The notes below the pieces were generated by a model. That model had not been told where the DNA came from. It worked only from the letters and a program-made list of their open reading frames with translations, and did not search any database. Source: Luteolibacter sp. (GTDB lineage Bacteria; Verrucomicrobiota; Verrucomicrobiia; Verrucomicrobiales; Akkermansiaceae). From it: DNA of 57,684 nucleotides. Below, one piece after another: positions 14,480 through 55,237 of the stretch (its first letter is position 1; the number at the start of each line of letters is the position of its first letter). The translations under genes and the position numbers were made by a program. The stretch lies in contig JAJTHK010000055.1 in the NCBI GenBank assembly GCA_021298895.1, positions 1 to 57,684 on the forward strand, written 5' to 3'.

Positions 14480-14490
14480 AAGCTTGTTTT

Positions 14491-14825
14491 TTCCAGCCCT
14501 CCGTTCTCTCCGTTTCCTTCTGTAAAAAGATTTCTTCACAGAAGGTAACAAAGGAAACGAAGGAGCTCCGCGCTTAACTTTAACTTCTAGAATTTTTGTA
14601 ATTGTGATGCGATAGCTGGGTTGTTCCAACCCTCCGTTATCTTCGTTGCCTTCTGTAAAAAGATTTTCTTCACAGGAGGTAACAGAGGAAACGGAGGGGC
14701 TTAGCACTCAGCTTTCGATTACATTCCTCTGCATTAAATATTTCTCAGAAGAAGAGTAAATTAGAGGTGATAGCTAGGTTGCTCCAGCCCTCCGTTATCT
14801 CCGTTTGCTCCTGTGAAAAATATTT
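14491..14825. repeat. tandem array of ~9-bp-unit inverted-repeat modules (BIME-like)
   Basis: Three CCCTCCGTT..C(C/T)GTT..CTGT arms (about 14497, 14630, 14788) and two complementary ACAG.AGGTAACA.AGGAAACG.AGG arms (14538, about 14672), between convergent genes. Confidence 0.85.
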
Positions 14826-14929
14826 TCTCATCATCTCATTAATCCGCGGATACAGATTTGATGACAATAGCCCAAGCCCCTTTCAACCAGCCTCATTTGA
14901 ACTTGGCTGTACCTAAGAATTTAGGAACG

Positions 14930-15733
14930 TTATAACGTCTCCACAGCATCCAAAAACGAAGGATATTTCGGCTGCCAACCAGTTGCTTTGAGCTTGGCGT
15001 TGGAAACCTGTTTGTGGGTCCAACCGCGTTTACGGTTCAAATCACGCGGTCCACTCGGCGGGAGAGGTTTGCTGAAAATTTTTGCCAGTCCTTGATAAAC
15101 TTCCAGCTGAGTTAAACTCTCCGAATCACAGATGTTAAAAATTTCTCCTGCTGGAAATTTTGTTAGATTAAACAAATGCAACAACGCGCTAGCTGCGTCA
15201 TCGCGGTGGATCTGATTGATGAAACGCCGACCGTCTTCCTCGATGACTGCTTCATCGTTTTTAAACTTACTCAAAAGCACACTGCGATTCGGCCCGTAAA
15301 TTCCTGCGAGCCTTGCGACCACGCCGCCGGCATCTAGCACGATATTTTCCGCAGCTAACAACAACCTGCCCGTTTCACGATCTGGAATGGTTTCGGATTC
15401 CTCGTTCACCGTCTCACCGTTGTGCTGAGCATAAACCGAACTGCTGGAGGTGAAGGCAATCTTGGCTTGAGGGAATCGACGGACGAGATTCTCGCAGCCT
15501 TTCAAATAAACGTTACGATACGCATCCTCACCACCACGTCCCGATGCCGCACAATGAATCACCGCATCCGCATCCGGAAGCGCGGCAACCGATTCCGAAT
15601 CACTCACATCACAGGCGATCAGATTTTCTCCACCGCTCAGTGATACACCTGTCGCTTGCCATCCTGCGGCTTTGAACTGCCGCAAAATTTCCTCGCCCAA
15701 ATACCCAGCTCCTATCACCAAAAGTTTATTCAT
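14930..15733 (-). CDS. NAD-dependent epimerase/dehydratase (SDR)
   Basis: GAGYLG Rossmann motif, TSSSSVY, RLAGIYGP, IHRDD; start placed at MNKLL. Confidence 0.88.
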   Translation of the reverse strand: MNKLLVIGAGYLGEEILRQFKAAGWQATGVSLSGGENLIACDVSDSESVAALPDADAVIHCAASGRGGEDAYRNVYLKGCENLVRRFPQAKIAFTSSSSVYAQHNGETVNEESETIPDRETGRLLLAAENIVLDAGGVVARLAGIYGPNRSVLLSKFKNDEAVIEEDGRRFINQIHRDDAASALLHLFNLTKFPAGEIFNICDSESLTQLEVYQGLAKIFSKPLPPSGPRDLNRKRGWTHKQVSNAKLKATGWQPKYPSFLDAVETL

Positions 15734-15743
15734 ATCTACGCAA

Positions 15744-16472
15744 CTAATCGTTTTTCCGCGCCACAAACCATAGCAGCAAACCGCCAACCGTAAGTCCGCC
15801 GAAAAAGATCAGCCAGAAAAGCTCATGAACAAAATCCGGTAAATTCACATTCATCCCAAACAAGCTGCCCAATGCAACCACGGGCAAAAAGAAGCCAGTG
15901 ACAAGGTTGAGCTTAAAAAGAATTTTTCCCAATCGATCTGAGGATCTCGCATGTTCTTCGGAAGCCTCTGCTTGCCAAAAGATCAAGGTTTCGCGCGCAT
16001 CACTTTGAAGAAGTTCAGCCGCTCGTTCAAGTTCTCTTGCGCGGTCGCGGAAGGATAGGATTTCACGATCTTCAGGCTCTTGAGCGAGAGCATCCTCAAG
16101 CGCATGAACCAGATTTCGACTGCTTCGCGTAATAGGCCCTGCATGTCTGAGGATTTTGAAAACCAGCTCCGTGGACTCCGTTTTTTCTAACAATTCCTCG
16201 TTCAGATCAATCGCCTTCGCGTAGCGATCTAGTAAAGAACTAAGCTCACTCAGGCCCGACCCATTGGGCTGCAACCAGGTTCCATCGCGCCGCCTCCAAA
16301 AGAAAATCGCCTTACGTTCGGGGATACCTGCCTCTGGGACCTCATGCACTACCAGCAGCAATTCACTCTCCCCCACCACACAACGCTGATGCCCAGGCCG
16401 ACCGCTGAGCTGCTCCCTCAACGTGCGCTCAATTTCAAAAAGTGGCGGCAATATCAGTAATTCCTCATGCAT
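15744..16472 (-). CDS. CorA-like divalent cation transporter (short form)
   Basis: C-terminal pair of TM helices containing the LFGMN signature. Confidence 0.7.
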   Translation of the reverse strand: MHEELLILPPLFEIERTLREQLSGRPGHQRCVVGESELLLVVHEVPEAGIPERKAIFFWRRRDGTWLQPNGSGLSELSSLLDRYAKAIDLNEELLEKTESTELVFKILRHAGPITRSSRNLVHALEDALAQEPEDREILSFRDRARELERAAELLQSDARETLIFWQAEASEEHARSSDRLGKILFKLNLVTGFFLPVVALGSLFGMNVNLPDFVHELFWLIFFGGLTVGGLLLWFVARKND

Positions 16473-16566
16473 GACTTGATGATTTATGGGATTTTTTACA
16501 TATCCGCAACCTTACGATTGGCCGTGCTTGCATATCCGCCCAAATCAAGCTAATTACTTCGCATTC

Positions 16567-17175
16567 ATGAAATACTTTGTCCTATTCGCTTGCTCGATGC
16601 TACTGATTTCCTGCGTCGATACCAAACCTCCAGGATCCGATTATCTCGCTGGCATTGGCGGTCCAATCCATCGCCCAACCTCTGGCGGCCCTCACCATCC
16701 TGCCCCAGCTATCCCTGATGATGTGTCCTATTGGGAAGGCGATGACGTCAAAGGTCCCTCGGTCATCAAAATTGTGCGCTCCCAACAAAAGGCATTCTTT
16801 TACAAAGGCAACAAACTGGTAGGGGTTTCCAAAATCTCCTCCGGAAAAGAAGATTCCGGCACCCCTCCAGGAAAATACAAAATCTCTCAGAAAAATAAAG
16901 ATCACAAATCATCCCTTTACGGCTCCATCAAAGACAAGGCCACCGGCCAAGTCATCAACGACAATGCCGACATCCGCGTCGATCAAGTCGGCCCAGGTCA
17001 GGTCTTTTACCATGCACCCATGCCTTACTACATGCGCTTCAACAACGCCATCGGCATGCACACCGGCTACCTACCCGGCTACGCCGCATCACATGGTTGT
17101 GTTAGAATGCCCCACCACATGGCCGAGAAGTTTTTCGAAAACGTAACCGTCGGAACGCCGGTGATTGTTGAGTAA
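16567..17175 (+). CDS. L,D-transpeptidase (YkuD) family lipoprotein
   Basis: Lipobox LISC; TPPGKY, MPYYMR, GMHTG and ASHGCVRM (catalytic His/Cys). Confidence 0.9.
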   Translation: MKYFVLFACSMLLISCVDTKPPGSDYLAGIGGPIHRPTSGGPHHPAPAIPDDVSYWEGDDVKGPSVIKIVRSQQKAFFYKGNKLVGVSKISSGKEDSGTPPGKYKISQKNKDHKSSLYGSIKDKATGQVINDNADIRVDQVGPGQVFYHAPMPYYMRFNNAIGMHTGYLPGYAASHGCVRMPHHMAEKFFENVTVGTPVIVE

Positions 17176-17240
17176 CTCAGCTAATGACATGTCTTTTAGC
17201 GCTCGCGCAACTGCTGATAGCAGGTTGCAAGAGTCCTCGT

Positions 17241-17291
17241 CAACGGCCATCCATCAGCAAGCATTCGTGTTATTCGAGAAATTCGTAGTTA
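17241..17291 (+). repeat. partial (right-half) copy of the CACGAATTT module
   Basis: caacggccatccatcagcaagcattcgtgttattcgagaaattcgtagtta matches about 18428-18475 and the reverse complement of about 22440-22492. Confidence 0.8.
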
Positions 17292-17379
17292 AATTTCTTC
17301 ATCTTACGATTTTTACGTCAGAAAACCTACCAGCAATCATTTGGTCGACGCTGCCTAACTTATCGTTTATCAATGGCGC

Positions 17380-18372
17380 ATGGGAACACCTGCGTTGAAA
17401 CGGATCGATTGTCATGTGCATTTGTTAGGAGACGGCAGCTCCGGTAGCGGGTGCTGGCTGCAGATGAGGACGCCGCTTCATCAGTTGATGGCTCGTTTTA
17501 TCGTGAAATCAACAGGCTTACCAGCGGGTTGCTTGGATACAGGACTGGATGAGGCGTTGTTGGATCGACTGGTTCACTTGGTGCGGACCTCATCTTTGGA
17601 TTCCGTGGTGCTGTTAGCTCAGGACTTGCCCTACACCGACGACGGCATCGCCATGCCGGAGAAAGGGGCTTTCTATGTCCCTAACGAATATCTGCTGAAA
17701 GTCTGCGCCGAGTATCCGGATCTTTTTATCCCTGCCGTCTCCATCCATCCATCGAAACCCAATGCCATGGAGGAACTGGACCGCTGCATCGCCGCAGGCG
17801 CGCGGGTGCTTAAATTGCTGCCGAACTGCCTCAACGTCGATTACTCAAATCCAAAACATCAACCGTTTTTCAAAAAAATGGCCGCCGCCGGAATGATCCT
17901 GCTATCCCACACCGGCGGTGAAATCTCTCTGCCTGTCATCGATCCACTCCTCGCCGATCCTCGCTTGTTAGAATATCCGCTTGCTTGCGGTGTCACCGTG
18001 ATCGCCGCGCACTGCGCGGGTCGCTCAGGATTATGGGATGCCGACTACACAGACGACCTCATCGAAATGTTTGAAAAATGGCCGCGCTTGTATGGCGACA
18101 ACTCCGCCCTATGCAGCCCCATCCGCTGCCAGACTCTACCCAAAGTCCTTCCTGAAAACGTACGCAATCGCATCATCCACGGCAGCGACTTTCCCATCTC
18201 CGTCAATGGCTTCGGCCCATGGCGCATGCGCTTGATCGATTTCAAAACCTGGCGCGCCGCAGACCGCGACCCCAATGTCCTTGAACGCGATGTCTTCCTG
18301 AAAACCAAAGTCGGCTTCGATGATGCGCAGCTAACACGCATGGCGGAAATTTTGGAATCTTCTAAAATCTAA
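17380..18372 (+). CDS. amidohydrolase family protein (Amidohydro_2)
   Basis: IDCHVH, SIHP, SHTG, AAHC and HGSDFP motifs. Confidence 0.85.
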   Translation: MGTPALKRIDCHVHLLGDGSSGSGCWLQMRTPLHQLMARFIVKSTGLPAGCLDTGLDEALLDRLVHLVRTSSLDSVVLLAQDLPYTDDGIAMPEKGAFYVPNEYLLKVCAEYPDLFIPAVSIHPSKPNAMEELDRCIAAGARVLKLLPNCLNVDYSNPKHQPFFKKMAAAGMILLSHTGGEISLPVIDPLLADPRLLEYPLACGVTVIAAHCAGRSGLWDADYTDDLIEMFEKWPRLYGDNSALCSPIRCQTLPKVLPENVRNRIIHGSDFPISVNGFGPWRMRLIDFKTWRAADRDPNVLERDVFLKTKVGFDDAQLTRMAEILESSKI

Positions 18373-18475
18373 CCACGAATTTCACGAATTGCACAAATAT
18401 GAAGACAGATTAGCTGATGTTTATTCGCAGCGAACATCCATCAGCAAGCATTCGTGTTATTCGTGAAATTCGTGG
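18370..18475 (+). mobile_element. MITE-like ~106-bp element with (CACGAATTT)-type nonamer arms, copy 1
   Basis: aaccacgaatttcacgaattgcacaaat ... attcgtgttattcgtgaaattcgtgg; close match to the reverse complement of 22440-22547. Confidence 0.75.
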
Positions 18476-18507
18476 ACAAAAAATACCTCAGCGCTCGAAG
18501 AGTTTTA

Positions 18508-18641
18508 AACCACCGAACGCACGGAACACACGGAATGTGTGTTACTACACTGATCTTTGAATTTTCAACTACGCAGCGAACATCAAAGCACCAATACAGC
18601 GCTTTAGCTCCCACTCCGTGCGTTCCGTGCTCTCCGTGGTT
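18508..18641. repeat. nonamer inverted-repeat module (CACGGAACN arms)
   Basis: aaccaccgaacgcacggaacacacggaatg ... cactccgtgcgttccgtgctctccgtggtt. Confidence 0.8.
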
Positions 18642-18831
18642 AATTTCATATCAACCCCAGCTATTCCTCTTATTTTTCTGCCGAAATTTTCTATCTGAGG
18701 TCTTCTGCTCCTATGAGTGATGCCCATATGGTGGGCGTTGAGGACAGTCTCACGTCCGTTAGATGAATCGCGCGTTAAGATTTTTGAAGTGGGTCGACTC
18801 AGCGAGGCGACCCTACCGTTTATGAAATCAC

Positions 18832-18862
18832 AAAAAAAAGCGAACCTCATCGGCTCGCTTTT
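18832..18862 (-). terminator. Rho-independent terminator after the PEP-CTERM gene
   Basis: AAAAAGCGA...TCGCTTTTT hairpin with an A-run, about 25 bp past the stop. Confidence 0.6.
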
Positions 18863-18885
18863 CTCTATTTGAAATTTAAAATCTC

Positions 18886-19524
18886 TTACCGACGACGACG
18901 CAGAAGTCCGAGAACTCCCAAAGAAGCTAACAGGAAGGTTGAGGGCTCGGGGATGGCGACTAAATTGTAAGCTGGAACTGCAATTGTTCCTCCAAAAGAA
19001 GTAAAAGTATGCTGAAAGTTATTGTAACCACCTTGTACCAGCGTTCCTGCTGCATTCTGTACGTTAATAGTATCGGTGGATGGCTCCGAAGATGCAAACG
19101 TCGATGGTTTACTCCAAACTAAAAACTCAGTTGCAGCAGTGACACCTAAAGCTGTGAACCCAGCGGCAGAATTTGTAATCACCAAATAAAGGGGCTGACC
19201 TGCATATGGAGCAGCCAAAGGCGTGCCACTAATATTACCACTAAATATACCATTTCCATCTGCACCAACAAATCCAGCTCCAAAATTAAGAAGATTACCG
19301 TATGGGTTAAACGTACTTACTAACGTTGCTAGTGAAGCACCTGGCACATCAACAACCCCACTAAAATAACCAACTTGAACGGAACCAGCGCCATTGGCAA
19401 TCAATGTTCCGTTAGACAATGTAATCGCATTAGAATCATTTGGGTTATTTACATTGCCGACTGTGAACGTTGCGGCATTAGCAAAACTTGCTAGTATGAT
19501 CAAAATTAGAGGCGCGAACTTCAT
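18886..19524 (-). CDS. PEP-CTERM sorting domain protein
   Basis: Signal peptide (MKFAPLILIILASFANA); C-terminal IPEPST, hydrophobic helix, RRRR. Confidence 0.92.
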   Translation of the reverse strand: MKFAPLILIILASFANAATFTVGNVNNPNDSNAITLSNGTLIANGAGSVQVGYFSGVVDVPGASLATLVSTFNPYGNLLNFGAGFVGADGNGIFSGNISGTPLAAPYAGQPLYLVITNSAAGFTALGVTAATEFLVWSKPSTFASSEPSTDTINVQNAAGTLVQGGYNNFQHTFTSFGGTIAVPAYNLVAIPEPSTFLLASLGVLGLLRRRR

Positions 19525-19567
19525 ATTACTAAAAATCAATTATTTGTAACTGTTTGACTAAATACCA

Positions 19568-20536
19568 TTAATTAGCAGTTAGAGTCACGTTGTAAGCAGA
19601 CTGACGACGGTTAATGATAATTGCTGGTGTTAGTGGAACAGCTGCTTGATTTGTGGAACCCCCGCCGACGAGCCGCCAACCGACTCCAGCGAATCCACCG
19701 TTTGAATAAAAGTAAGTTAAGTATCCACCAGATCCATTTGGCATCATAATTAAATCAGCTGTATTTGAATTACCTTGTAGCACCGAAGCCGCCAAGCCAC
19801 TGGTAGCTAAAGTAGGGGCACTGCCAAAAACCGTTGATATATACTCATAAGTCTGAGCGATGCCAATCTTTGTTTGATCCAATTTAACCTCACCATTTAA
19901 TACTAAGTCCAGATCCGTTAGGCCCCTACGCTGGATGAAAATCGCATCAGTATACACGATAGGATCTGCTGCAAAATTTGTCGATCCACCTCCAACTTTT
20001 CTCCATCCGATACCTGCAAACCCACCGGTAGAATAAAAATATGATGTAAATCCCCCAGAACCGTTAGGAATAAGTATTAAATCAGCAGTATTCGAATTAC
20101 CTCCGAGCAATCCCGATTGATTAGTAGCTCCAAAGATTGAGGATAGCGTTGCTGCAGGTCTGATCCTGTATGGCTCGTCGCCCGCAAGAGCCGCCACGAA
20201 AGAGGAAGGCAACCCTTGGATCTCGGTGGCGGTAAATGTAGTAAACTCCTGAATAGCTCCTGAATTTGGACCTGAGCCCGTTATCTCGATAATATTGACC
20301 CCAGATGCAAGAGATGAAGTGAATGTAGCTTCAGTATCGGCGATACTTGTTGAAGTCGGTTTAGAGTTAAGTATTCCTGAAAAGACTGTTGTTCCATGTA
20401 CGTTAAGCCCTATTAAATTATACTGACCTGCCTTAAGTGTCTGAGTCGTGTATCCTACCGGCGTCGTATAAACCTGAGCAAACGCAGCATGCGAAACTGT
20501 TAGGCAGGCGAGCGCGAAAATCGTAGTCGTTCTCAT
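19568..20536 (-). CDS. TIGR02597-like secreted protein of Verrucomicrobia
   Basis: Signal peptide followed by VYTTPVGY; GEV motif; internal duplication (GNSNTADLI..PNGSGG..YFYS.GGFAG.GWR.VGGGSTN twice). Confidence 0.65.
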   Translation of the reverse strand: MRTTTIFALACLTVSHAAFAQVYTTPVGYTTQTLKAGQYNLIGLNVHGTTVFSGILNSKPTSTSIADTEATFTSSLASGVNIIEITGSGPNSGAIQEFTTFTATEIQGLPSSFVAALAGDEPYRIRPAATLSSIFGATNQSGLLGGNSNTADLILIPNGSGGFTSYFYSTGGFAGIGWRKVGGGSTNFAADPIVYTDAIFIQRRGLTDLDLVLNGEVKLDQTKIGIAQTYEYISTVFGSAPTLATSGLAASVLQGNSNTADLIMMPNGSGGYLTYFYSNGGFAGVGWRLVGGGSTNQAAVPLTPAIIINRRQSAYNVTLTAN

Positions 20537-20816
20537 AATTGGATGTTTTTTTGAGGGTTTGGGTTTTTGGGTGACGGATGTGTCACCAATCAGATGAGCC
20601 ATACTAGTAAATCCCCTATGACTGACAATCCAAAAGTTGGATATTTTTCAGGGAGAACCATACCTGAAAATAGGTAGGTTTGACATTGCGTTATTTAAGT
20701 TAAGTTAAGGGTTATTAGGGGGGTGAGTCAGGATGGGAACATCCTTATGGATGAAGGGATATTGGGGTTTTTGATCACCCATTAACCCTGTGATAGCGCA
20801 TCTGAATTGGTCAGCC

Positions 20817-20857
20817 TGATTGACGATTGATGATTGTTGAGGTTTGATTTTTGATTT
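20817..20857. repeat. heptamer tract (GATTGNN)
   Basis: gattgac-gattgat-gattgtt-gaggttt-gattttt; same unit as the tract at 55238. Confidence 0.7.
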
Positions 20858-20888
20858 GGCCCTCATTCGCCTCTTCTCAGACTCTCCA

Positions 20889-21004
20889 TTAACCTGGCCA
20901 ATGGGTGAGATTTTTGAGCAATTTCAGGCGATTTTCGATGTCTTCTCTGGAAATATGGGCGAGGCGATTGGCGGAAAAAGCCTCGCAGGTGAAGGAGGCG
21001 ACGA
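20889..21004 (-). pseudogene. duplicated 3' end of the pfkB-family gene
   Basis: 20896-21004 matches 21313-21421 at 106 of 109 nt; ends ...THWPG* instead of ...THWPE*. Confidence 0.9.
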
Positions 21005-21260
21005 AGAGAACGAAGGATGTTCCAACCCCTTTTTCTCAAATTTCCTGCCAGAGAAATGCAGAAGCCTAGACAAGGCCGATGTGCGAAGCTCCTTCGTTGA
21101 CTTCGTTACCTTCTGTTTAAAAAATCCAAGAATTTAAACAGGAGCAAACAGAGATAACTGAGGATGTTCCAAACCATTCATCACAGCCCTTTCTCCTGAA
21201 TTTAAGATCAAAAGAATCGAGCAACGCCCCTCCGTTTTCTCCGTTACCTCCTGTTCAAAT
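21001..21260. repeat. pair of ~9-bp-unit inverted-repeat modules (same family as the 14491 array)
   Basis: acgaagagaacgaagga ... tccttcgttgacttcgttaccttctgttt; aaacaggagcaaacagagataactgagg ... cctccgttttctccgttacctcctgtt. Confidence 0.8.
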
Positions 21261-21305
21261 TCTTCTTATTGGACTCTAAAGCCGGCCGGAGGCACGGCTC
21301 TCCAG

Positions 21306-22283: not shown

Positions 22284-22297
22284 GCAGCGGTTCTAAG

Positions 22298-22332
22298 TCT
22301 CAAAATTCAAAATTCAACTTTCAAATTCCAAT
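22298..22332. repeat. heptamer tract upstream of the pfkB-family start
   Basis: caaaatt-caaaatt-caacttt-caaattc. Confidence 0.65.
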
Positions 22333-22333
22333 T

Positions 22334-22651
22334 AAGATTTAAACGGAGGATCGGAGATAACGGAGAGAACTGTTAAGATTGCTGATGATTAGACCTTAGA
22401 CAGAAAAATAAGAGGAATAGCTGGGGTTGATGTGGTCTAAACCACGAATTTCACGAATAACACGAATACACGCTGATGAATGGCCGTTGCGAATAAACAT
22501 TAGCTAATCTGTCTTCATATTTCTGCAATTCGTGAAATTCGTGGTTAAATTTTTAAATTTTCACCCGCAAGTTTTCTGACAGCGGTCTCCAGCTAATCCA
22601 ATTACCCTCTTATCCGTTTCCTCCGCATCTCCGATCCTCCGTTTAAATCTT
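22334..22651. mobile_element. outer inverted-repeat module (perfect 25-bp arms) enclosing a nested element
   Basis: AAGATTTAAACGGAGGATCGGAGAT (22334-22358) and ATCTCCGATCCTCCGTTTAAATCTT (22627-22651). Confidence 0.7.
22440..22547 (-). mobile_element. MITE-like CACGAATTT element, copy 2 (inverted relative to copy 1)
   Basis: Reverse complement aligns with 18370-18475 over arms and core (atatgaagacagattagct.atgtttattcgca). Confidence 0.75.
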
Positions 22652-22704
22652 CTCTGTAATTTGGAAGTTGCTGAAAACGTAGGGAAGTGATGCATTTCAC
22701 AAGT

Positions 22705-23625: not shown

Positions 23626-24554
23626 GCGGAGGCAAAGGCATGCTCGTGGCATTGCCCGAGCGCTGGGATGAAGCCTGTTTTGCAGTTCCTGCAGTGCGGG
23701 CCTTAGAACGCAGCGGATTGATCGGCGCGTTGGTTTACCATGAGGAACAGGAAAATTTCTGGAAGACGGCCAGCTCTCTGCCGTGTTTCACGTTTTCTAA
23801 CAAATCCAGTGCAGGACAACTCGCAAAATTGTTAGGAAACGATTGGGAAGCCTCGCTGACATGGGAAGACGGGATTGCCGCGAGAGCCTTTGCCAAAGCC
23901 AAAATCCAGCGCAGACTCGGCCCCGCCAGCGCGAACTTAAAAAAGCTCATCACCCACCCGCTTCAAGCCCACGAAGCGCCCACCGAACACCGTGTGCGGC
24001 TTTACCTCAACACCTGCGAGGAAATGGGGATTTCCGTAAACCATCCCGAGCTTTTTGTTCCCGCTTCCTTGGGCATTCCCGCAAAACCGCAATCCGTCCT
24101 GCTCTGCCCGGACTCCGACTACGGCCCCAGCCACGAATGGCCACTCGACCGTTGGCAGATGGTCGCTGAACATTTGTTAGAAAAAGGAAAGCATCTGACT
24201 GTCGCGGGATTAGTTGGCGGTCGCAACCTTGGAAAAATTCTAACAAGTCGGATCGGCGGCGATATTGATTTTTTCCACGCCAACCCGCTCAATGCTATCA
24301 TCCCAACCCTCTCCACCTTCCAATCCGTCATTGCCGCCGATGGTTTCCTTCCCCACCTCGCAGCTTACACGGGATGCACCTGCATGACTCTCTTCGGCCC
24401 CAACGATCCCAACTGGAAACGCCCTCTCGGCAAGCAAAACGTCGTCGTCAAACATCACGTCGAATGCGCGCCGTGCCTTTCGCCGCAATGCAAGATGGAC
24501 AATCGTTGTCAGAATGAGCTGCGGGTTGCTGATATATTGGAATTTTGTTCCTAG
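23622..24554 (+). CDS. glycosyltransferase family 9 (LPS heptosyltransferase-like)
   Basis: CPDSDYGPSHEWP, DGFLPHLA, TLFGP and CAPC...C motifs; ATGA overlap with the upstream gene. Confidence 0.85.
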   Translation: MSGGKGMLVALPERWDEACFAVPAVRALERSGLIGALVYHEEQENFWKTASSLPCFTFSNKSSAGQLAKLLGNDWEASLTWEDGIAARAFAKAKIQRRLGPASANLKKLITHPLQAHEAPTEHRVRLYLNTCEEMGISVNHPELFVPASLGIPAKPQSVLLCPDSDYGPSHEWPLDRWQMVAEHLLEKGKHLTVAGLVGGRNLGKILTSRIGGDIDFFHANPLNAIIPTLSTFQSVIAADGFLPHLAAYTGCTCMTLFGPNDPNWKRPLGKQNVVVKHHVECAPCLSPQCKMDNRCQNELRVADILEFCS

Positions 24555-24625
24555 TTCCTAGTTCCTGGTTCCTGATTCCTGGTTGAGCTTCGCGCTACAG
24601 CATAATCGAACTAAGAACTAAGAAC
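24547..24625. repeat. inverted heptamer-tract module between convergent genes
   Basis: gttccta-gttccta-gttcctg-gttcctg-attcctg ... gaactaa-gaactaa-gaac. Confidence 0.8.
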
Positions 24626-24638
24626 AGCGCCGAAGGCG

Positions 24639-25004: not shown

Positions 25005-25097
25005 AGCCCCAAGCTGAATGGCGCGCAGGAAAATTTCAATAAATGAGTTTGGTTGTGACCGTTAATACAGGAGATGCCCTGTAGGGGTTAAGATAAA

Positions 25098-25246
25098 CTC
25101 GCGCAAAGCCGCCAAGACGCAAAGGAAGACCTGCGATAGAAAAATGGGGGCAGAAAAATATAAAAATTTAACCATATCAACCCCAGCTATTCCTGTTTTT
25201 TCGACGTGTACTCTTCTATCTTTGCGTCTTGGCGGCTTTGCGCGAG
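25098..25246. repeat. inverted-repeat module with perfect 27-bp CGCAAAG-type arms
   Basis: CTCGCGCAAAGCCGCCAAGACGCAAAG and CTTTGCGTCTTGGCGGCTTTGCGCGAG. Confidence 0.9.
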
Positions 25247-25255
25247 ACATTATCT

Positions 25256-25297
25256 TTTCAAATTTAGAGTTTAAAGTTTAGGATTTAAAATTTAAAC
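25256..25297. repeat. heptamer tract upstream of purU
   Basis: tttcaaa-tttagag-tttaaag-tttagga-tttaaaa-tttaaac. Confidence 0.75.
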
Positions 25298-25304
25298 CCC
25301 CTCT

Positions 25305-26162
25305 ATGCGTTCCGGACTCATCCTCAAACTCTCCTCTCCCGACCAACCAGGAATCGTGGCAAAAATCGCTTCTTACGTTGCGACGTATAACGGCAACTTG
25401 ATTGAGTTCAGCCAGTTTTCCGATCAGATCGGGAAGAAATTTTTTGCACGCCTTGAGATCGATACCACGGAGCTCAATGTCGATGTTGAAGTTTTCAAAT
25501 CGAACTTCACTCCGCTCGCTCACTCCCTCGATGCAAAATGGCATTTCCGCATTCTTCCCTACAAAATGCGCACGGCGGTTTTGGTGACAAAGACCGATCA
25601 CTGCCTCAATGAAATCATCTGGCGCTCCGAACTCAGCGAGTTGCCCATCGAAATCACTTCCGTCATCGGCAACCGCAACAACTGCCGCGCCATCGCTGAG
25701 CGTTCCGATCTACCGTTTCACCTCATCGAAATGGACGGAGGCAAACGTGAAAGCGGCTTCGAACAAATCCGCGAACTCCTCATCGCTCAGGATGTCGAGC
25801 TCATCGTTCTAGCGCGTTTCATGCAAATTCTTCCTGCGGATTTTTGCGATGAATTTTCCGGAAAAATCATCAACATCCATCATTCATTCCTGCCCGCCTT
25901 CATCGGTGCAAATCCTTACCGCCAAGCCTACGATCGCGGCGTGAAGCTGATCGGCGCAACCTGCCATTACGTCACCAACGACCTGGACGCTGGGCCCATC
26001 ATCGAACAAGAAGTTGAACGCGTGCATCATTTCCATTCACCTGCCGACCTATCACGCCTCGGCCGCCAATGCGAACGAATCGCCCTCGCCAAAGGCATTC
26101 GCTACCACGTCCATGACCGCACCCTCATCGACGGCAATCGAGCCATCGTATTTCCAGATTAA
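25305..26162 (+). CDS. purU: formyltetrahydrofolate deformylase
   Basis: N-terminal ACT domain (PDQPGIVA); LARFMQIL, INIHHSFLPAF and GVKLIGATCHYV motifs. Confidence 0.96.
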   Translation: MRSGLILKLSSPDQPGIVAKIASYVATYNGNLIEFSQFSDQIGKKFFARLEIDTTELNVDVEVFKSNFTPLAHSLDAKWHFRILPYKMRTAVLVTKTDHCLNEIIWRSELSELPIEITSVIGNRNNCRAIAERSDLPFHLIEMDGGKRESGFEQIRELLIAQDVELIVLARFMQILPADFCDEFSGKIINIHHSFLPAFIGANPYRQAYDRGVKLIGATCHYVTNDLDAGPIIEQEVERVHHFHSPADLSRLGRQCERIALAKGIRYHVHDRTLIDGNRAIVFPD

Positions 26163-26251
26163 ACTTTAAATTTTAAACTCTAAACTTCAAGAAGAGTGCT
26201 GCACACGTCTTATCTCTTCCTTGAAGTTTAGAGTTTAAAATTTAAAGTTTA
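26160..26251. repeat. heptamer-tract module with a perfect 32-bp inverted repeat, probable bidirectional terminator
   Basis: TAAACTTTAAATTTTAAACTCTAAACTTCAAG and CTTGAAGTTTAGAGTTTAAAATTTAAAGTTTA; the ends coincide with the TAA stops of both convergent genes. Confidence 0.9.
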
Positions 26252-27313: not shown

Positions 27314-27324
27314 GACAAATAAAC

Positions 27325-27345
27325 CTGTTACCCCAGCGGTAACAG
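27325..27345. promoter_or_regulatory. candidate operator palindrome
   Basis: CTGTTACC-N5-GGTAACAG, 11 bp upstream of the regulator ATG, in the divergent regulator/tig spacer. Confidence 0.55.
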
Positions 27346-27443
27346 ATGTCCAGCAGGAATGAGCTCAAAGCTCCATAATCAGATATTTCGTTGCCAATCC
27401 CACCCTTCCACGCCTAGCTTCGCTCCCCCTAAGTAGAACATTC

Positions 27444-28781: not shown

Positions 28782-28787
28782 TCCATC

Positions 28788-29471: not shown

Positions 29472-29481
29472 TCCTCCATCC

Positions 29482-29513
29482 TTCGAGTTTAAAATTTAAA
29501 GTTTAAAGTTTCC
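29482..29513. repeat. heptamer tract abutting the clpX start
   Basis: ttcgag-tttaaaa-tttaaag-tttaaag-tttcc-ATG. Confidence 0.75.
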
Positions 29514-30812: not shown

Positions 30813-30823
30813 ACTCAAGTTTG

Positions 30824-30996
30824 TCGCGCAAAGTCGCGAAGACGCAAAGGAAGAGGTTTTTGACTGATAAGCATCATCTATTGATTGAGATCGGTGGTTC
30901 TTTTTTCGTAACTCGTGTGCTTTATCCTTAAACATCCGGCGTTACATGGCTTCATATCAAGCCCCCTTAACTTTGCGTCTTTGCGACTTTGCGCGA
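30824..30996. repeat. inverted-repeat module with CGCAAAG-type arms (same family as 25098)
   Basis: TCGCGCAAAGTCGCGAAGACGCAAAG and CTTTGCGTCTTTGCGACTTTGCGCGA (25 of 26 complementary). Confidence 0.9.
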
Positions 30997-31117
30997 GACG
31001 GACATCTTCCACCCCGCATTTTTCCGAAAATTTTGTAAACAAATCTCAATTCCGGTGTCGCAAATTTGTCAGTTACATTTAAAAACCCTGCCAACCCATC
31101 TCAATTCAGCCATCCCT

Positions 31118-31843
31118 ATGATCGAAGTCATCAATATCAGCAAACATTTCGGCGCCAAACTTGCCGTTGATAACCTATCCTTCACCGTCAAAAAAGGTGA
31201 GGTGCTAGGTTTCCTCGGACCCAACGGTGCAGGAAAATCCACTACCATGCGCATGGTCACTGGCTTTATCCCACCCAGCTCCGGAGACGCGAAAGTCTGT
31301 GGTATTTCCATCACCGAAAATCCCTACGAAGCGAAAACCAAGATCGGCTACCTCCCAGAATCCGCACCGCTATACAACGACATGACGGTCATCGGTTTCC
31401 TGAAATTCTGCGCAAGCGTCCGCAAGTTATCTGGTTCAGCGAAAAATGATGCTGTGGAAAAAGCCATCGAAACCTGCTTCCTCACCAGTGTCGCCCATCA
31501 ATCCATCGACACCCTCTCCAAAGGCTACCGCCACCGCACCTGCCTCGCCCAAGCCCTCCTTCATGATCCGGAAGTTCTCATTCTCGATGAGCCCACCGAT
31601 GGCCTCGACCCCAACCAAAAATACGAAGTCCGCCAACTCATCAAACGCCTCGGCAAAGACAAAGCCATCCTGTTTTCCACGCACATCCTCGAAGAAGTCG
31701 AAGCCGCTTGCACCCGCGCGGTCATCGTCGATCGCGGAAAAATCGTTGCCGACGGCACACCCGCCCAGCTCATCGCACAAGCTCCGCACGGCTCTCTAAC
31801 AGAACTCTTCCGCAAAGTCACCAGCACCGACACCGCCGCGTAA
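31118..31843 (+). CDS. ABC transporter ATP-binding protein (GldA-like)
   Basis: GPNGAGKST, LSKGY and ILDEPTDGLDP motifs; start placed at MIEV. Confidence 0.92.
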   Translation: MIEVINISKHFGAKLAVDNLSFTVKKGEVLGFLGPNGAGKSTTMRMVTGFIPPSSGDAKVCGISITENPYEAKTKIGYLPESAPLYNDMTVIGFLKFCASVRKLSGSAKNDAVEKAIETCFLTSVAHQSIDTLSKGYRHRTCLAQALLHDPEVLILDEPTDGLDPNQKYEVRQLIKRLGKDKAILFSTHILEEVEAACTRAVIVDRGKIVADGTPAQLIAQAPHGSLTELFRKVTSTDTAA

Positions 31844-31844
31844 A

Positions 31845-31867
31845 GTAGCGGCGATCACTGGTCGCCG
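31845..31867 (+). repeat. GTAG-headed REP-like palindrome
   Basis: GTAG-CGGCGA-tcactgg-TCGCCG. Confidence 0.5.
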
Positions 31868-31886
31868 TCTTCCAAAAAAAACAATT

Positions 31887-31940
31887 CTCCCGACTCCCGA
31901 CTCCCGACTCCCGACTCCCGACTCCCGACTCCCGACTCCC
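31887..31940 (+). repeat. perfect heptamer VNTR, (CTCCCGA)7 plus a partial unit
   Basis: Seven exact units ending 7 bp before the permease ATG. Confidence 0.97.
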
Positions 31941-31947
31941 TTCCACC

Positions 31948-32676
31948 ATGAACACCCTCACCATCTACCTTCGCGAATTAAAATCCTACTTCGCACAACC
32001 CACCGCCTACGCGATCATCGTCATCTTCGTATTTCTCTCACTCGGCATGACATTCACTTTCGGCCAATTCATGCGTGCCGGTGATGCATCGCTGTTTTCC
32101 TTTTTCTTCTGGCACCCATGGCTCTACATGCTGCTTGCTCCAGCCATCGCCATGAAACTTTGGGCGGATGAACAACGCAACGGCACCATCGAACTACTCG
32201 GCACGTTTCCAGTTTCCACATGGTCAGCGATCGCAGGAAAATTTCTCGCCGCTGCCACAGTTTCGCTCGTCGCTCTCTTGCTGACTTTCCCCATGGTGAT
32301 CACCGTCAACTATCTGGGAAACCCTGATAACAGCGCGATCATCTCCAGCTACATCGGCTCCTTCCTCGTGTGCTGCACTTTCATCGCCATCACCATGCTC
32401 GTCTCCGCATTCACCCGTGACCAAGTCGTCTGCCTGATCGTATCCGTTGCAATCTGCACTATCATGGTGCTCTGCGGTTATGAGCCCGTCACCACCGAAC
32501 TCGCAAAAGCCACTTCTCCAGGCACTGTTGAGGCCGTTGTTTCTCTGGGCGTATGGAGCCACTTCGCCTCACTCGACCGCGGCATGTTCCGCCTCCAAGA
32601 CTTCATCTGGTTCGCCAGCTTCATCAGCATCAGCCTCCTCGGCACATCCACCATCCTCAGCGCCAAACGCGCCTAA
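31948..32676 (+). CDS. ABC-2 permease (GldF-like)
   Basis: RELKSYF, WADEQRNGTIELL and GKFLAA motifs; multiple TM helices. Confidence 0.88.
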   Translation: MNTLTIYLRELKSYFAQPTAYAIIVIFVFLSLGMTFTFGQFMRAGDASLFSFFFWHPWLYMLLAPAIAMKLWADEQRNGTIELLGTFPVSTWSAIAGKFLAAATVSLVALLLTFPMVITVNYLGNPDNSAIISSYIGSFLVCCTFIAITMLVSAFTRDQVVCLIVSVAICTIMVLCGYEPVTTELAKATSPGTVEAVVSLGVWSHFASLDRGMFRLQDFIWFASFISISLLGTSTILSAKRA

Positions 32677-32678
32677 TA

Positions 32679-32765
32679 TTCAACTCCAGATCTCTAACTT
32701 CTAATCCAAGTAAAGCATCCATTCATTTCTTCCTTTTGATGGTTGAAATTTGAAATTTGAAATTT
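32679..32765. repeat. degenerate inverted heptamer-tract module abutting the GldG-like start
   Basis: ttcaact-ccagatc-tctaact-tctaatc ... tttcttcc ... ttgaaat-ttgaaat-ttgaaat-tt-ATG. Confidence 0.65.
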
Positions 32766-34652
32766 ATGAAAACTCCCATCGCCCGCGCCACCTTCGGCAT
32801 CATCGCTCTTGTCGCCATCGCTGTTCTCGCCAACTGGCTGATCTCTCTAACACCTTACGGAAACAGAGGAGCCGACTTCACAGAAAATAAAATCCATACG
32901 CTTTCCGATGGCACTAAATCCATCCTTAGCGAACTCGATACCCCTGTCGTCATCCGCTACTATGCTTCTCGTAGTAGCGATTACATGCCGGAGCAATTGA
33001 AAGTTCATCTCCGCCGTGTCGATGACCTACTCAAAGAATACGCCAATCTTTCCAATGGAAAATTGCGCATCGAATACCTCGATCCACAACCTGATACCGA
33101 TGCGGAGGACTCCGCCAACCTTGATGAAATCTCCGGACAGCAGATCAACGAGGACAACCTCTTTTTCGGTATGGCAGTCACCGCTTTGGATAAAAAAGTC
33201 AGCCTACCTTTCCTCAATCCACAAGAGGAAACCATGTTGGAATACCAAATCTCAAAAGCCATCGCGGAAGTTTCAACTCCCGTCAAACCAGTGATCGGAA
33301 TCATTTCAGGAATCGACCTCGCAGGCGCACCCGCCATGATGCCTGGCCAACAAGGCCAACAACCTTGGGTTATCTATCAACAACTCAAACAATCCTTCGA
33401 ACTGGTAGACCTTGGAATGAATCCGGAAAAAATCGACCCGAATGCCATCAAACTTCTTCTCGTTTTCCATCCTGCAGGAATTTCCCCTCAAACCGAATTC
33501 GCCATCGATCAATATCTTCTTAACGGAGGCTCCGTTGTTGCCTGCCTTGATGCTCATTCCGTCGCCGCAGAAATGACTGGCGGCGGAAACCCCATGATGG
33601 GACAAGCAGGGTCACCTACCTCATCCACCCTCCCTACTTTGCTCAATGCGTGGGGCGTGAAATTTAATTCACAGCAAGTCGTTGCCGACCCAGTTCACTA
33701 CACTTCATTCGGTGACGGTCGTGGTAGCGTTACCGTGTTAAATCTTCCGCAAACTGCTATGCCTCAAAAAGATAGCATCATCACCAAAACTCTTACTTCG
33801 GTAACTCTCTATCTACCTGGCGCTTTTGAAAATACAGGCAACAGCGGTGTCTCCGCAAACTCGCTGATCCGCTCGTCCACATCCGCTGGCTTCGTCGATC
33901 CAATCAAGGCTTCACAGCTCGACCCATCGATCGAAAAAAATATCAAAGCTGGCGGCAAGGCGCTCGATCTCGTCACTTTCCTATCTGGAAATTTCAAAAC
34001 CGCCTTCCCCGATGGTAAACCTAAAAGCGAAACACCCGAAACCCCTGAAGGCGAAAACAAGGACGCTCCGAAAGAGGAATCTCTCAAAGAAGCCATGAAA
34101 CCCGGTAACGTATTCCTCATCGCCGACATCGATGCCTTTTACGATCGCTTCGCTTACAACGTCCAAAACTTCGGCGGTATGCAAATGGCAACTCCTACTA
34201 ACGGCAACTCCGTCCTGCTATTTAACATCATCGATCAAGCCATCGGCTCAAAACACCTCATCGGTTCACGCTCGCGCGCCGCTACTCGCCGTCCTTTCAC
34301 TGTTGTCCAAGAAATGGAAACGAAATTCAAAGAGCAAGTCGGCCAAAAAGTCGGAGAATTTGAAAAGAAACGAGAAGAAGCCCAAGCTAAACTTCAAGAA
34401 CTCCAAGCCCAAAAAGCCCGCGGCAAAGAGCTTTATCTCTCACCTGAGCAGGAGGCTGAAATCGCCAAACTCACTCAACAACAGGTCGAATACTCACGCC
34501 TGATCCGCGAACAAGAAAAAGACCTGCGCCGTAAGAAAGACAGACTCGCTGGAAACATCACTCTGCTCAACGTCGCAGTCGTCCCATTGTTAGTCATCCT
34601 CTTTGGTCTCTTACTCCACTTCATTCGCCGTGCATCGACTCGCGCCCGCTGA
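32766..34652 (+). CDS. GldG-family ABC auxiliary protein
   Basis: N- and C-terminal TM anchors; DFTENKIHTLS, LEYQISKAI and AIDQYLLNGG motifs. Confidence 0.88.
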   Translation: MKTPIARATFGIIALVAIAVLANWLISLTPYGNRGADFTENKIHTLSDGTKSILSELDTPVVIRYYASRSSDYMPEQLKVHLRRVDDLLKEYANLSNGKLRIEYLDPQPDTDAEDSANLDEISGQQINEDNLFFGMAVTALDKKVSLPFLNPQEETMLEYQISKAIAEVSTPVKPVIGIISGIDLAGAPAMMPGQQGQQPWVIYQQLKQSFELVDLGMNPEKIDPNAIKLLLVFHPAGISPQTEFAIDQYLLNGGSVVACLDAHSVAAEMTGGGNPMMGQAGSPTSSTLPTLLNAWGVKFNSQQVVADPVHYTSFGDGRGSVTVLNLPQTAMPQKDSIITKTLTSVTLYLPGAFENTGNSGVSANSLIRSSTSAGFVDPIKASQLDPSIEKNIKAGGKALDLVTFLSGNFKTAFPDGKPKSETPETPEGENKDAPKEESLKEAMKPGNVFLIADIDAFYDRFAYNVQNFGGMQMATPTNGNSVLLFNIIDQAIGSKHLIGSRSRAATRRPFTVVQEMETKFKEQVGQKVGEFEKKREEAQAKLQELQAQKARGKELYLSPEQEAEIAKLTQQQVEYSRLIREQEKDLRRKKDRLAGNITLLNVAVVPLLVILFGLLLHFIRRASTRAR

Positions 34653-34697
34653 TTTAACCCTATCCTCATTCTTTAATCCTCAATCTCTAACAAAAAG

Positions 34698-35912
34698 ATG
34701 AAACCACGTACCGTTATCATTCTCTGGATCATTGCCCTAGCTCTTGGCGTTTCCGTTTATGCCGTCAAAAAAGCCTCTGGTGACAACATCAAAACCACCA
34801 CGCAACGTTCTGCCGGACAAACACTCATCGCTGATTTCCCAGCCAAAGATATCAGCTCCATCCACATCACCGATGCCGATCTATCCGTCACACTTCAGAA
34901 AAAAGACGGCAACTGGATCGTTGTTGAACGTGATGGATTCAATGCCAACTCCACAGAAATCACAGGATTCCTCCGCACTCTGATCGATCTGAAAGTCACT
35001 CAAGGCATCGAAGCTGGCCCATCCTTCGCATCTCGTTTCGGGATGGATGAAAAATCCTCCGACCCCACTCAACGCGGAGTCACCGCAGAGTTCAAAGACA
35101 CTTCCGGCAAATCCCTCGCCACGATCTCCTTTGGGAAAAACCTCGACTCCACCGCATCCTCCTCACCCTTCGGCGGCGGCTCGGTCGGACGCTTCGTTCG
35201 CAACCACGCCGATGAATCTGGATTCTATGCCGTCTCCGAACTCTTCCCAAGTCTTTCTGCCAATCCTAAAAATTGGCTCTCTGAAGAATTTATCAAAATC
35301 GAAAAAATCCAATCCATCTCCCTCACCCAACCCGGCTCAGATAAAAATGAATGGGAACTCGATCGCGATAGCGAAGAAGCCGATTTCAAATTCACTTCAG
35401 CTTTCCCTGGCGTGAAAATCGACAAAGCCGCTGCCGATCCTCTCAAGTCATTTTTATCATACGGCAGATTTGACGACATCGTCCCGACCGCTGAAATCGA
35501 AAAACGCGCGAGCCCTGATAAACTCCAAACCGCCACGATCAAAACCTTTGAAGGAATCACCTACGTTCTCGCCCTCCAGCCATCCAAATCTAACAGCGAA
35601 AACTATCTTCTTACCTTCAAAGTTTCCGGTGAACTTCCGGAAAAGCGCAAAGCCGCCGAAAACGAAAAACCTGAGGACGCCGCTGCTGCCGAAAAAGCTT
35701 TTGCAGATCGTCGCAAAGCGCTCGCGGATAGCATCGCTCAAACCAAAAAACTTGAGCTCATCACCTTCGAGGTCAGCAAATTCACCGTCGACGCCCTACT
35801 CAAATCCCGCACCGACCTGATGGACAAAGGCCCCGGCCCACAAGCCCAGCCTGCTCCAGGCGAGGGACTTGGTCCTGTCTTCTCACCTCCCGTCTCCATC
35901 CCACAACAGTAG
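34698..35912 (+). CDS. DUF4340-like protein
   Basis: N-terminal anchor, LQKKDGNW, position directly after a gldAFG-like trio. Confidence 0.75.
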   Translation: MKPRTVIILWIIALALGVSVYAVKKASGDNIKTTTQRSAGQTLIADFPAKDISSIHITDADLSVTLQKKDGNWIVVERDGFNANSTEITGFLRTLIDLKVTQGIEAGPSFASRFGMDEKSSDPTQRGVTAEFKDTSGKSLATISFGKNLDSTASSSPFGGGSVGRFVRNHADESGFYAVSELFPSLSANPKNWLSEEFIKIEKIQSISLTQPGSDKNEWELDRDSEEADFKFTSAFPGVKIDKAAADPLKSFLSYGRFDDIVPTAEIEKRASPDKLQTATIKTFEGITYVLALQPSKSNSENYLLTFKVSGELPEKRKAAENEKPEDAAAAEKAFADRRKALADSIAQTKKLELITFEVSKFTVDALLKSRTDLMDKGPGPQAQPAPGEGLGPVFSPPVSIPQQ

Positions 35913-35977
35913 GTTTTACGGCGTTTCTGAACTTGGAGTCTGACGCTTCATAAGCTAAACTCTTCTCCAAGTTCATT

Positions 35978-36259
35978 ATGTCGAATCCACACGACCATCC
36001 CACCGCCCTCAGAGATCTCCAAGATTCCATCTACCGGGAAAAAATCCTGCGTGCCCGATCGATGACAGAAGAGCAGCGAATTTCAGAGGTTTTCGAGCTT
36101 TCAAATAGACAATTTAAAATAATGCTCGCTGGTGCTATGGCAAAAATTGGCACTAATGATAAAGAACTCGGCTGGCAGGAGGTCAGTAAAAACATGGATC
36201 GCCTTGATCGCATCCGTGATTTCGGTCTCTACACCGCTGAAAAGCCCGCTGAGATATAA
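35978..36259 (+). CDS. hypothetical 93-aa protein
   Basis: ATG-started ORF with a KILRARSMTEEQRI segment. Confidence 0.6.
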   Translation: MSNPHDHPTALRDLQDSIYREKILRARSMTEEQRISEVFELSNRQFKIMLAGAMAKIGTNDKELGWQEVSKNMDRLDRIRDFGLYTAEKPAEI

Positions 36260-36328
36260 AACTCAAATTCGAGTTCATTTGGAAAACTGACAAAGCTCAA
36301 ACTGATTCCAAAGAAAACATCACTCTTT

Positions 36329-36366
36329 CTCTGCGTCCCTTTGCGACCTCTGCGCCTCTGCGGTTA
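36329..36366. repeat. single arm of a ~9-bp-unit repeat
   Basis: ctctgcgtcc-ctttgcgac-ctctgcgc-ctctgcggtta. Confidence 0.7.
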
Positions 36367-55228: not shown

Positions 55229-55237
55229 GAGAGAAAT

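What the first reader, a model, noticed from the sequence alone, without database searches (positions are those of the whole stretch)
14491..36366. Family of intergenic hairpin modules with ~9-bp tandem-unit arms whose sequence changes while architecture is kept
Seen: at least five arm types share one plan, namely about three tandem 8-10-bp units, a core of roughly 50-120 bp (longer when nested), then the reverse complement. The types are ACAGAAGGTA/ACGGAGG (14491-14825, 21001-21260), CACGAATTT (17241, 18370, 22440), CACGGAACN (18508), CGGAGGAT (22334-22651) and CGCAAAGN (25098, 30824), with lone arms at 4933 and 36329. Arms within a module match each other better than arms of other modules. 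Between 25098 and 30824 a C-to-T change in the left arm (AAAGCCGC to AAAGTCGC) is mirrored in the right arm (GCGGCTTT to GCGACTTT). No transposase or RAYT gene is in the window. Inference: these are non-autonomous elements in which periodicity and fold-back, not primary sequence, are recognised, or in which one arm is templated from the other. From memory (unverified), similar nonamer tracts flank GxxExxY PD-(D/E)XK-like genes in other genomes, which would be a candidate trans-acting factor.
Basis: partly seen in the sequence, partly recalled or inferred. Interest (0 to 1): 0.72.

Follow-up and report, generated by a model that had tools for sequence, protein, structure and literature searches.

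The report
Nuclease-linked hairpins swapping between gene junctions
Hairpin-forming DNA repeats between this bacterium's genes share their mirrored ends with small cassettes that carry a predicted nuclease gene, come and go at the same gene junctions between strains and species, and are likely moved by that nuclease, which would make them an undescribed kind of selfish DNA.

Summary
The modules are real. Periodic-arm hairpins of period 8, 9 and 10 fill 31, 37 and 26 of 1,256 intergenic regions; shuffles give none. The same arms enclose small GxxExxY genes (Cas4/lambda-exonuclease fold) in this genome and in 58 of 76 loci across phyla. Modules differ between close strains. At one junction, pheS|pheT, nuclease cassettes, four-helix-bundle cassettes and empty hairpins replace each other almost independently of the flanking-gene tree, while each nuclease clade keeps one site. 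There is no target duplication, no RAYT link and no RNA-strand bias. Best reading: homing-like selfish cassettes with gene-less derivatives. That the nuclease drives the swap is untested (about 0.5); non-nuclease cassettes turn over likewise. Nine literature searches found no description. This scan noted the arm-nuclease link before on other DNA; site fidelity, slot competition and gene-end co-transfer were not in the excerpts I saw.

The parts
14498..14815 (.). Tandem array of ACAGGAG-type modules between convergent ispE and epimerase genes: lone right arm 14498-14523, module 14538-14656, module 14672-14815
   Evidence: whole 450-bp insert absent in close strain L100 and in G003
17241..17289 (-). 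Lone right arm of CACGAA type (17264-17289) with part of the 18373 core
   Evidence: absent in G003, present in L100
18373..18475 (.). CACGAA-type module; inverted whole-module copy of 22440-22546
   Evidence: 91% over 112 bp to the 22440 module, and a further copy on contig C76
18508..18641 (.). CACGGA-type module
   Evidence: the same arm class encloses the GxxExxY gene on contig C51
20885..21004 (-). Relic second copy of the pfkB 3' end, forming a direct repeat of about 110 bp around the two modules that follow
   Evidence: absent in L100; the only such case among 128 arm-bearing intergenic regions
20993..21255 (.). Two ACAGGAG-type modules (20993-21114, 21137-21255) after the pfkB stop
   Evidence: absent in L100 and G003
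22315..22670 (.). Nested module: outer AAACGGAG-type arms (22340-22365, 22620-22645) around CACGAA-type module 22440-22546
   Evidence: same outer arms enclose the GxxExxY gene on contig C126; outer arms kept in G003 with a different inner core, absent in four other relatives
25097..25247 (.). CGCAAAG-type (period 8) module before purU
   Evidence: absent in G003
30822..30998 (.). CGCAAAG-type module after clpX
   Evidence: not at this junction in G006, G008, G020, G034
36329..36366 (-). Lone right arm of CGCAGAG type
4933..4972 (.). Periodic tract of another class (RGACNGAT units); not part of the CRCNRAG family
   Evidence: similar tracts lie beside one of the two four-helix-bundle-suffix (TIGR04258) genes of the genome

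Best explanation
The modules share their inverted arms with small cassettes that carry a GxxExxY gene for a predicted nuclease, and are likely gene-less derivatives of those cassettes, likely spread by that nuclease in a homing-like way. Shown: each arm is an AT-rich tail plus about three CRCNRAG-like heptamers 8-10 bp apart; the full cassette sits between co-transcribed housekeeping genes; each nuclease clade keeps one junction; the occupant of a junction changes between strains and species, often together with the last tens of bases of the neighbouring genes; whole empty modules also have copies at unrelated sites, ending 10-15 bp outside the arms with no target duplication. Inferred: the protein binds the heptamer arrays in DNA and cuts at an arm-bearing junction; the break is repaired from an incoming or ectopic copy using the gene ends or the arms as short homology; this replaces the occupant, and gives empty, nested, lone and chimeric arms.
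For: Arms enclose 3 of 5 GxxExxY genes in this genome and lie beside the other 2; 58 of 76 loci across bacteria and archaea v 88 of 751 cross-locus pairs. Catalytic E, D, (E)xK and Q conserved in 74 proteins; model pLDDT 93.8, best matches LHK-Exo and Cas4 SSO0001, E 1.9e-4. Site fidelity: 76 of 93 proteins at 7 recurring sites, 6 site changes on the tree (the minimum) v 34-38 in the ten shuffles printed. pheS|pheT in 95 loci: 21 GxxExxY, 18 four-helix, 56 neither, none with both; 48 changes v 51.7 shuffled. An internally deleted cassette (L312) and an empty module with the cassette's arms (L324) sit at that site. Lateral swap: L280/L296 junctions 99% alike, distal coding 90%; L266/L269 96% v 89%. 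Close strain L100: at least 30 differences in 360 bp of gene ends facing polymorphic junctions v 4 in 900 elsewhere. No G.U strand bias, which fits double-stranded DNA sites. Rare on phages (2 of 50,697 records) and plasmids (7 of 72,556).
Against: No activity or binding was shown. Four-helix-bundle cassettes with 7-mer arms have no known nuclease fold (field knowledge) yet turn over at the same site. Ten genus genomes without a GxxExxY hit still carry 1-18 triple-heptamer matches, mean 8.7. The protein is about 125 aa with no separate DNA-binding domain, and structural Z is at most 7.8. The co-transfer gradient over all genus pairs is small (0.848 v 0.798 in the first 30 bp, 36 v 735 pairs). 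One of the three strain polymorphisms (corA|ykuD) is a module inside an ordinary terminal-repeat element with 8-10 bp duplications; without it the count is at least 21 in 240 bp, from one strain pair. Arm type follows the protein tree (14 changes v 34.6), but linkage alone gives that. The flank tree has 38 of 90 forks open, and sampling was not random.
Confidence: 0.5

Rival explanations
1. Host-driven turnover: the arms extrude cruciforms that host nucleases and recombinases cut and repair, so any hairpin junction is a recombination hot spot; GxxExxY and four-helix genes are passengers whose arms are only their own binding or control sites.
For: Two unrelated protein families share the architecture and the same slots; arms persist in genomes without a GxxExxY hit; folding is strong on both strands.
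Against: Does not explain why catalytic residues are kept across phyla, nor why the heptamer is conserved when any inverted repeat would do.
Confidence: 0.27
2. The modules ride on conventional elements: DDE-type MITEs or RAYT/REPIN systems carry them to new sites.
For: One module lies inside a 223-224 bp terminal-repeat element with 8-10 bp direct repeats at different sites in L100 and G022. The genome has 12 Y1-transposase matches and 50 REP-like copies.
Against: 0 of 87 modules in this genome lie inside that outer element; 0 of 12 Y1 matches have the arm doublet; 5 of 273 arms have a REP tetranucleotide; no target duplication (4.22 v 4.21 bp).
Confidence: 0.1
3. The arms work in RNA: they pair to loop the insert out of operon mRNA (RNase III processing as in 23S rRNA intervening sequences, or translational coupling), and persist for that benefit.
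For: At pheS|pheT the arms sit directly after the stop and before the start; lone right arms outnumber left ones in co-oriented junctions 34 to 17, p 0.02, from a census that missed some partners.
Against: No excess of G.U over A.C on the sense strand: 46 v 40 in 31 cassettes, 51 v 51 in 42 modules. 33 of 75 placed modules lie between divergent or convergent genes. It gives no route of spread.
Confidence: 0.09
4. Spread through RNA and reverse transcription, with four-helix (Avd-like) proteins as helpers.
For: One reverse-transcriptase match in the genome; a relic pfkB 3' end brackets two modules. The Avd likeness is recalled, not tested.
Against: The relic gene end is 1 case in 128 arm-bearing regions; no strand bias; I did not examine the neighbourhood of the RT gene.
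Confidence: 0.04

Closest known systems
REPIN-RAYT systems (PMC3116915, PMC3733652; passages read)
   Same: Extragenic inverted doublets around a spacer, nested and tandem clusters, many gene-less copies, a resident enzyme gene flanked by the same repeat, several repeat types per genome, strain-level polymorphism.
   Different: The enzyme is a PD-(D/E)XK protein, not a Y1 transposase; arms are tandem heptamers, not short palindromes with GTAG/CGTC; the gene cassette itself is replaced laterally at fixed junctions.
Free-standing homing endonucleases of T4-like phages, intronless homing (PMC2988022, passages read)
   Same: Intergenic nuclease gene at a fixed site between conserved genes, patchy across relatives, with co-transfer of flanking sequence; rival occupants of one slot.
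   Different: Chromosomal and rare on phages; about 125 aa without GIY-YIG/HNH or a separate binding domain; wrapped in periodic inverted arms; dozens of gene-less copies at other sites; cut site unknown.
Bacterial MITEs and their DDE insertion sequences (field knowledge)
   Same: Terminal inverted repeats around a non-coding core; whole-element copies at unrelated sites; a gene-bearing parent with the same ends.
   Different: No target duplication, fuzzy ends, no DDE transposase in the parent, parent site-faithful; 68 of 80 modules have no core relative at 72% identity.
Four-helix-bundle protein cassettes (PF05635/TIGR02436) and ORF-bearing 23S rRNA intervening sequences
   Same: Small gene inside a long inverted repeat; here they occupy the same operon slots and also leave empty hairpins.
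   Different: 7-mer arms, no known nuclease fold; these cassettes are not in rRNA and show no RNA pairing bias in the 8-10-mer class.
PDDEXK_3 / GxxExxY protein family (PF13366, TIGR04256; PMC3424549, one table row read)
   Same: The cassette protein is a member; that table lists function unknown and multiple transfers.
   Different: No flanking repeats or gene-less copies appear in the passage read.

Membership tests
REP/REPIN-RAYT | Repeat flanks a RAYT (Y1) gene | tested here: not met
   0 of 12 Y1 matches carry the arm doublet
REP/REPIN-RAYT | GTAG/GTGG/CGTC tetranucleotide at the repeat end | tested here: not met
   5 of 273 intergenic arms
REP/REPIN-RAYT | Extragenic inverted doublets in many copies | tested here: met
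   87 paired modules, 273 intergenic arms
MITE / DDE insertion sequence | Target-site duplication | tested here: not met
   4.22 v 4.21 bp in 87 modules; none at the ispE|epimerase empty site
MITE / DDE insertion sequence | Parent with the same ends encodes a DDE transposase | tested here: not met
   enclosed gene is TIGR04256 GxxExxY
MITE / DDE insertion sequence | Whole-element copies at unrelated sites | tested here: met
   10 paralogous pairs among 80 modules; 18373 and 22440
Free-standing homing endonuclease | Nuclease gene at a fixed intergenic site, patchy among relatives | tested here: met
Free-standing homing endonuclease | Co-conversion of flanking sequence | tested here: inconclusive
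   strong in one strain pair and a few species pairs, small over all pairs
Free-standing homing endonuclease | GIY-YIG, HNH or other known homing-nuclease family | tested here: not met
   only family hit is TIGR04256; I-Bth0305I catalytic domain is a weak fold match, E 0.027
Free-standing homing endonuclease | Cuts the allele lacking the gene and is over-inherited | not testable with these tools
   needs cleavage and inheritance assays
rRNA intervening sequence / structured RNA | Pairing selected on the transcript (G.U bias) or an Rfam match | tested here: not met
rRNA intervening sequence / structured RNA | Excision from the transcript | tested here: inconclusive
   two RNA runs covered 4 and 5 of 30 bins, none over a module
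PD-(D/E)XK nuclease, Cas4/lambda-exonuclease-like | Fold and catalytic E, D, (E/D)xK, Q residues | tested here: met
PD-(D/E)XK nuclease, Cas4/lambda-exonuclease-like | Nuclease activity | not testable with these tools
   no assay

The most novel reading that the evidence does not exclude
A new class of chromosomal selfish DNA, spread across many bacterial phyla and some archaea: a 125-residue Cas4-like nuclease reads three-heptamer arrays in inverted arms and drives replacement of whole gene junctions through only tens of bases of homology. Nuclease cassettes, four-helix-bundle cassettes and empty hairpins compete for the same operon slots, and recombination is focused on the ends of housekeeping genes.
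Probability: 0.4. Interest if true: 0.88.

Novelty: categorically new. Interest (0 to 1): 0.76.

Why it matters
It gives a testable role to two very common families of unknown function (GxxExxY and four-helix-bundle proteins) and explains an abundant, undescribed class of intergenic repeats. If the nuclease drives junction replacement, it is a mobility route that is neither transposition nor classical homing, uses one of the smallest nucleases known to me, and concentrates gene exchange at the ends of essential genes such as pheS, pheT and metH. The defined heptamer makes the binding and cutting tests cheap.

Tried and rejected
Reads laid on 14000-20500: two DNA runs showed no empty-site joint (joints were paralogous copies); two RNA runs covered no module, so nothing can be said on splicing or ends. 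Homodimer prediction gave no verdict. Rfam: no match in 8 sources. Sequence search of solved structures: only T7 endonuclease I at E 0.4. No solved fold reached Z 8. Co-occurrence of arms and gene across 121 genomes was not clean. Relic gene ends as a general insertion mark: rejected, 1 of 128 v 1 of 584. Other cargo genes between lone arms: none found within 3 kb. More of the L100 contig could not be obtained, so junctions beyond 22022 have no strain-level comparison. One search was an uninformative alignment. Literature: searches found no description of the arm-gene link; the library lacks most subscription journals, and I read no supplements (bioRxiv ones are closed), so a mention there is not excluded.
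Full report
Setting. The window is contig C133 of a 2.76-Mb assembly in 190 contigs, 89% complete. Its gene content (PEP-CTERM, DUF1501, DUF1553) points to Verrucomicrobiota; that label is my inference.

Observation. Genome-wide, hairpins with periodic arms occur in 31, 37 and 26 of 1,256 intergenic regions at periods 8, 9 and 10, in 77 at period 7, and in none at 11-12; three shuffles gave 0, with one hit at period 7. A pattern census found 324 arms of ten types, 273 intergenic, and 87 pairs; it missed some window arms, so pairs are under-counted and lone arms over-counted. Module ends lie a median 38 bp from stop codons (87 ends) and 74 bp from starts (76 ends). Arms match their partner a little better than same-type arms (0.848 v 0.812). 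The single mirrored change cited is weak alone (8 of 15). The 4933 tract is another class.

The gene-bearing form. The genome has 5 GxxExxY matches, 13 four-helix-bundle matches and 12 Y1 matches. Three GxxExxY genes are enclosed by inverted arms of the window's kind, one has a left arm and one an empty module just downstream. The arms on C126 are those of window module 22340-22645. The 11 four-helix genes examined have periodic flanks of their own, mostly 7-mer, read by eye. No Y1 match has the arm doublet. Among 80 GxxExxY loci from genomes of many phyla, 76 had both flanks; 58 had inverted arms scoring 30 or more, against 88 of 751 cross-locus pairs; 29 also scored in direct orientation, at least partly because whole hairpins flank some genes, and own arms beat all others in only 26. 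These 80 were the best matches to one sub-clade, so they are not a random sample.

Sequence of the arms. The types share a heptamer, CRCNRAG in the broad set and MRCNRAK over the genome's types, with 1-3 linker bases; spacings of 8, 9 and 10 dominate (112, 131, 92). A doublet flanks both sides in 32 of 76 loci, 0.02 in shuffles. Mismatches show no G.U preference on the sense strand (46 v 40; 51 v 51), which fits DNA sites better than an RNA stem. Rfam has no match.

The protein. An AlphaFold model has pLDDT 93.8. Foldseek ranks LHK exonuclease and Cas4 SSO0001 first (E 1.9e-4), then lambda exonuclease; Hjc resolvases are weaker. The wide search gives restriction-like folds at Z up to 7.8, none at 8. 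G26, E29, D68 and K80 are invariant in 74 sequences, E78 and Q92 nearly so. So it is a predicted active PD-(D/E)XK nuclease; the substrate is unknown. It is rare on phages and plasmids.

Mobility. The closest species G003 lacks the modules at ispE|epimerase, ykuD|amidohydrolase and before purU, keeps the outer arms at pfkB|thuA, and has an extra one at corA|ykuD. A close strain, L100 (93-99% identical in aligned blocks), lacks the 450-bp ispE|epimerase array and the pfkB modules, and has modules at dhqS|methylase and corA|ykuD that the window lacks. Gene ends facing three polymorphic junctions differ at 30 or more of 360 bases, other ends at 4 of 900; two of the six ends show no difference, and the amidohydrolase gene is diverged throughout. 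The corA|ykuD module sits in an ordinary terminal-repeat element with short duplications, seen also in G022 at another site, so hitch-hiking is one real route; none of the 87 modules here lies in that element. Whole-module paralogues exist (10 pairs among 80; 68 modules have none); similarity fades 10-15 bp outside the arms, with no target duplication.

One junction across the genus. Of 101 pheS|pheT loci (30 best DNA matches to this genome's allele, 60 taken down the list, 11 chosen for GxxExxY), 6 lacked pheT; the other 95 held 21 GxxExxY cassettes, 18 four-helix cassettes and 56 others: empty modules of several types, lone arms, 7-mer/9-mer chimeras, or as few as 3 bases. On a tree of the flanking 600 bp (93 rows after removing duplicates) the occupant changes 48 times v 51.7 shuffled; well-supported branches alone force at least 6 and 7 changes for the two cassettes. 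Twelve of 4,278 pairs have a junction more alike than their distal coding flanks, the clearest 99% v 90%. In contrast, 93 GxxExxY proteins from the genus sit at 24 sites, 76 at seven recurring ones, and site changes on the protein tree are at the minimum. Site-faithful but host-independent is the pattern of homing, not of insertion-sequence hopping.

Mechanism. I commit to nuclease-driven, homing-like replacement of junctions, with gene-less modules as trans-dependent derivatives (0.5). Shown are the shared ends, the heptamer, site fidelity, turnover and some gene-end co-transfer. Inferred are binding, cutting and repair by short homology. The main objection is that four-helix cassettes behave alike without a known nuclease, and that arms persist in 10 genomes without a GxxExxY hit; this keeps host-driven cruciform recombination at 0.27. 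That the modules are mobile gene-less relatives of the cassettes I put near 0.9.

Comparison and novelty. It works like a blend of REPIN-RAYT (PMC3116915, PMC3733652; passages) and intronless homing (PMC2988022; passages) but fails a defining test of each, and of MITEs. 'GxxExxY' occurs in 3 papers of the library, 2 listed: one passage read concerns a gene beside a reverse transcriptase (10.1101/2021.01.26.428298), the other I saw only as a listing. PMC3424549 lists the family as function unknown with multiple transfers (one table row). Other papers were seen as listings only. Eight earlier notes of this scan report the arm-nuclease link in other genomes; they are unchecked AI notes, I had the link before reading them, and they count here neither for nor against.

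Verdict. Real, mobile, tied to an uncharacterised nuclease family, not found in print by nine searches; mechanism open but directly testable. Interest 0.76.

Noticed in passing
window 24550-24630, 26160-26251, 55237-55337, 20820-20860: Empty hairpins and lone tracts with 7-mer arms; this class flanks four-helix-bundle genes in the genome and fills 77 of 1,256 intergenic regions.
   Followed up: partly
window 11842-12093: Cluster of REP-like palindromes starting GTGG; about 50 copies in the genome. A separate, conventional-looking repeat family; its enzyme was not identified.
   Followed up: partly
G000, about 30 copies; not located in the window: A highly uniform repeat of over 100 bp beginning CAGGGCG dominates the 16-mer count; possibly a recent MITE.
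   Followed up: no
L100 5030-5260 and L057 about 3670-3890: A 223-224 bp terminal-repeat element with 8-10 bp direct repeats carries a period-10 module at different sites in two species.
   Followed up: partly
window 22400-22420, 25135-25165, 18655-18685: A further short repeated tract (AGAAAAAT-like) lies in or beside modules; in G003 it forms a middle layer of the nested pfkB|thuA element. My pattern found only 2 copies.
   Followed up: partly
window 18886-20602 v L100 1015-2614: The PEP-CTERM genes between the module clusters are replaced by different ones in the close strain; a variable surface-protein slot bounded by module-bearing junctions.
   Followed up: no
L001 and 35 other loci (site S1): The junction between the two halves of split metH holds GxxExxY cassettes of several different protein clades and arm types.
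   Followed up: partly
L301, L311, L330: At pheS|pheT an unrelated small ORF sits next to right arms in three genomes; possibly a third cargo family.
   Followed up: no
L040 about 3570-4600: An insertion-sequence-like transposase lies between clpP and clpX in G015.
   Followed up: no
G000:C125:16622-17077: One reverse-transcriptase match in a 518-aa frame; context not examined.
   Followed up: no
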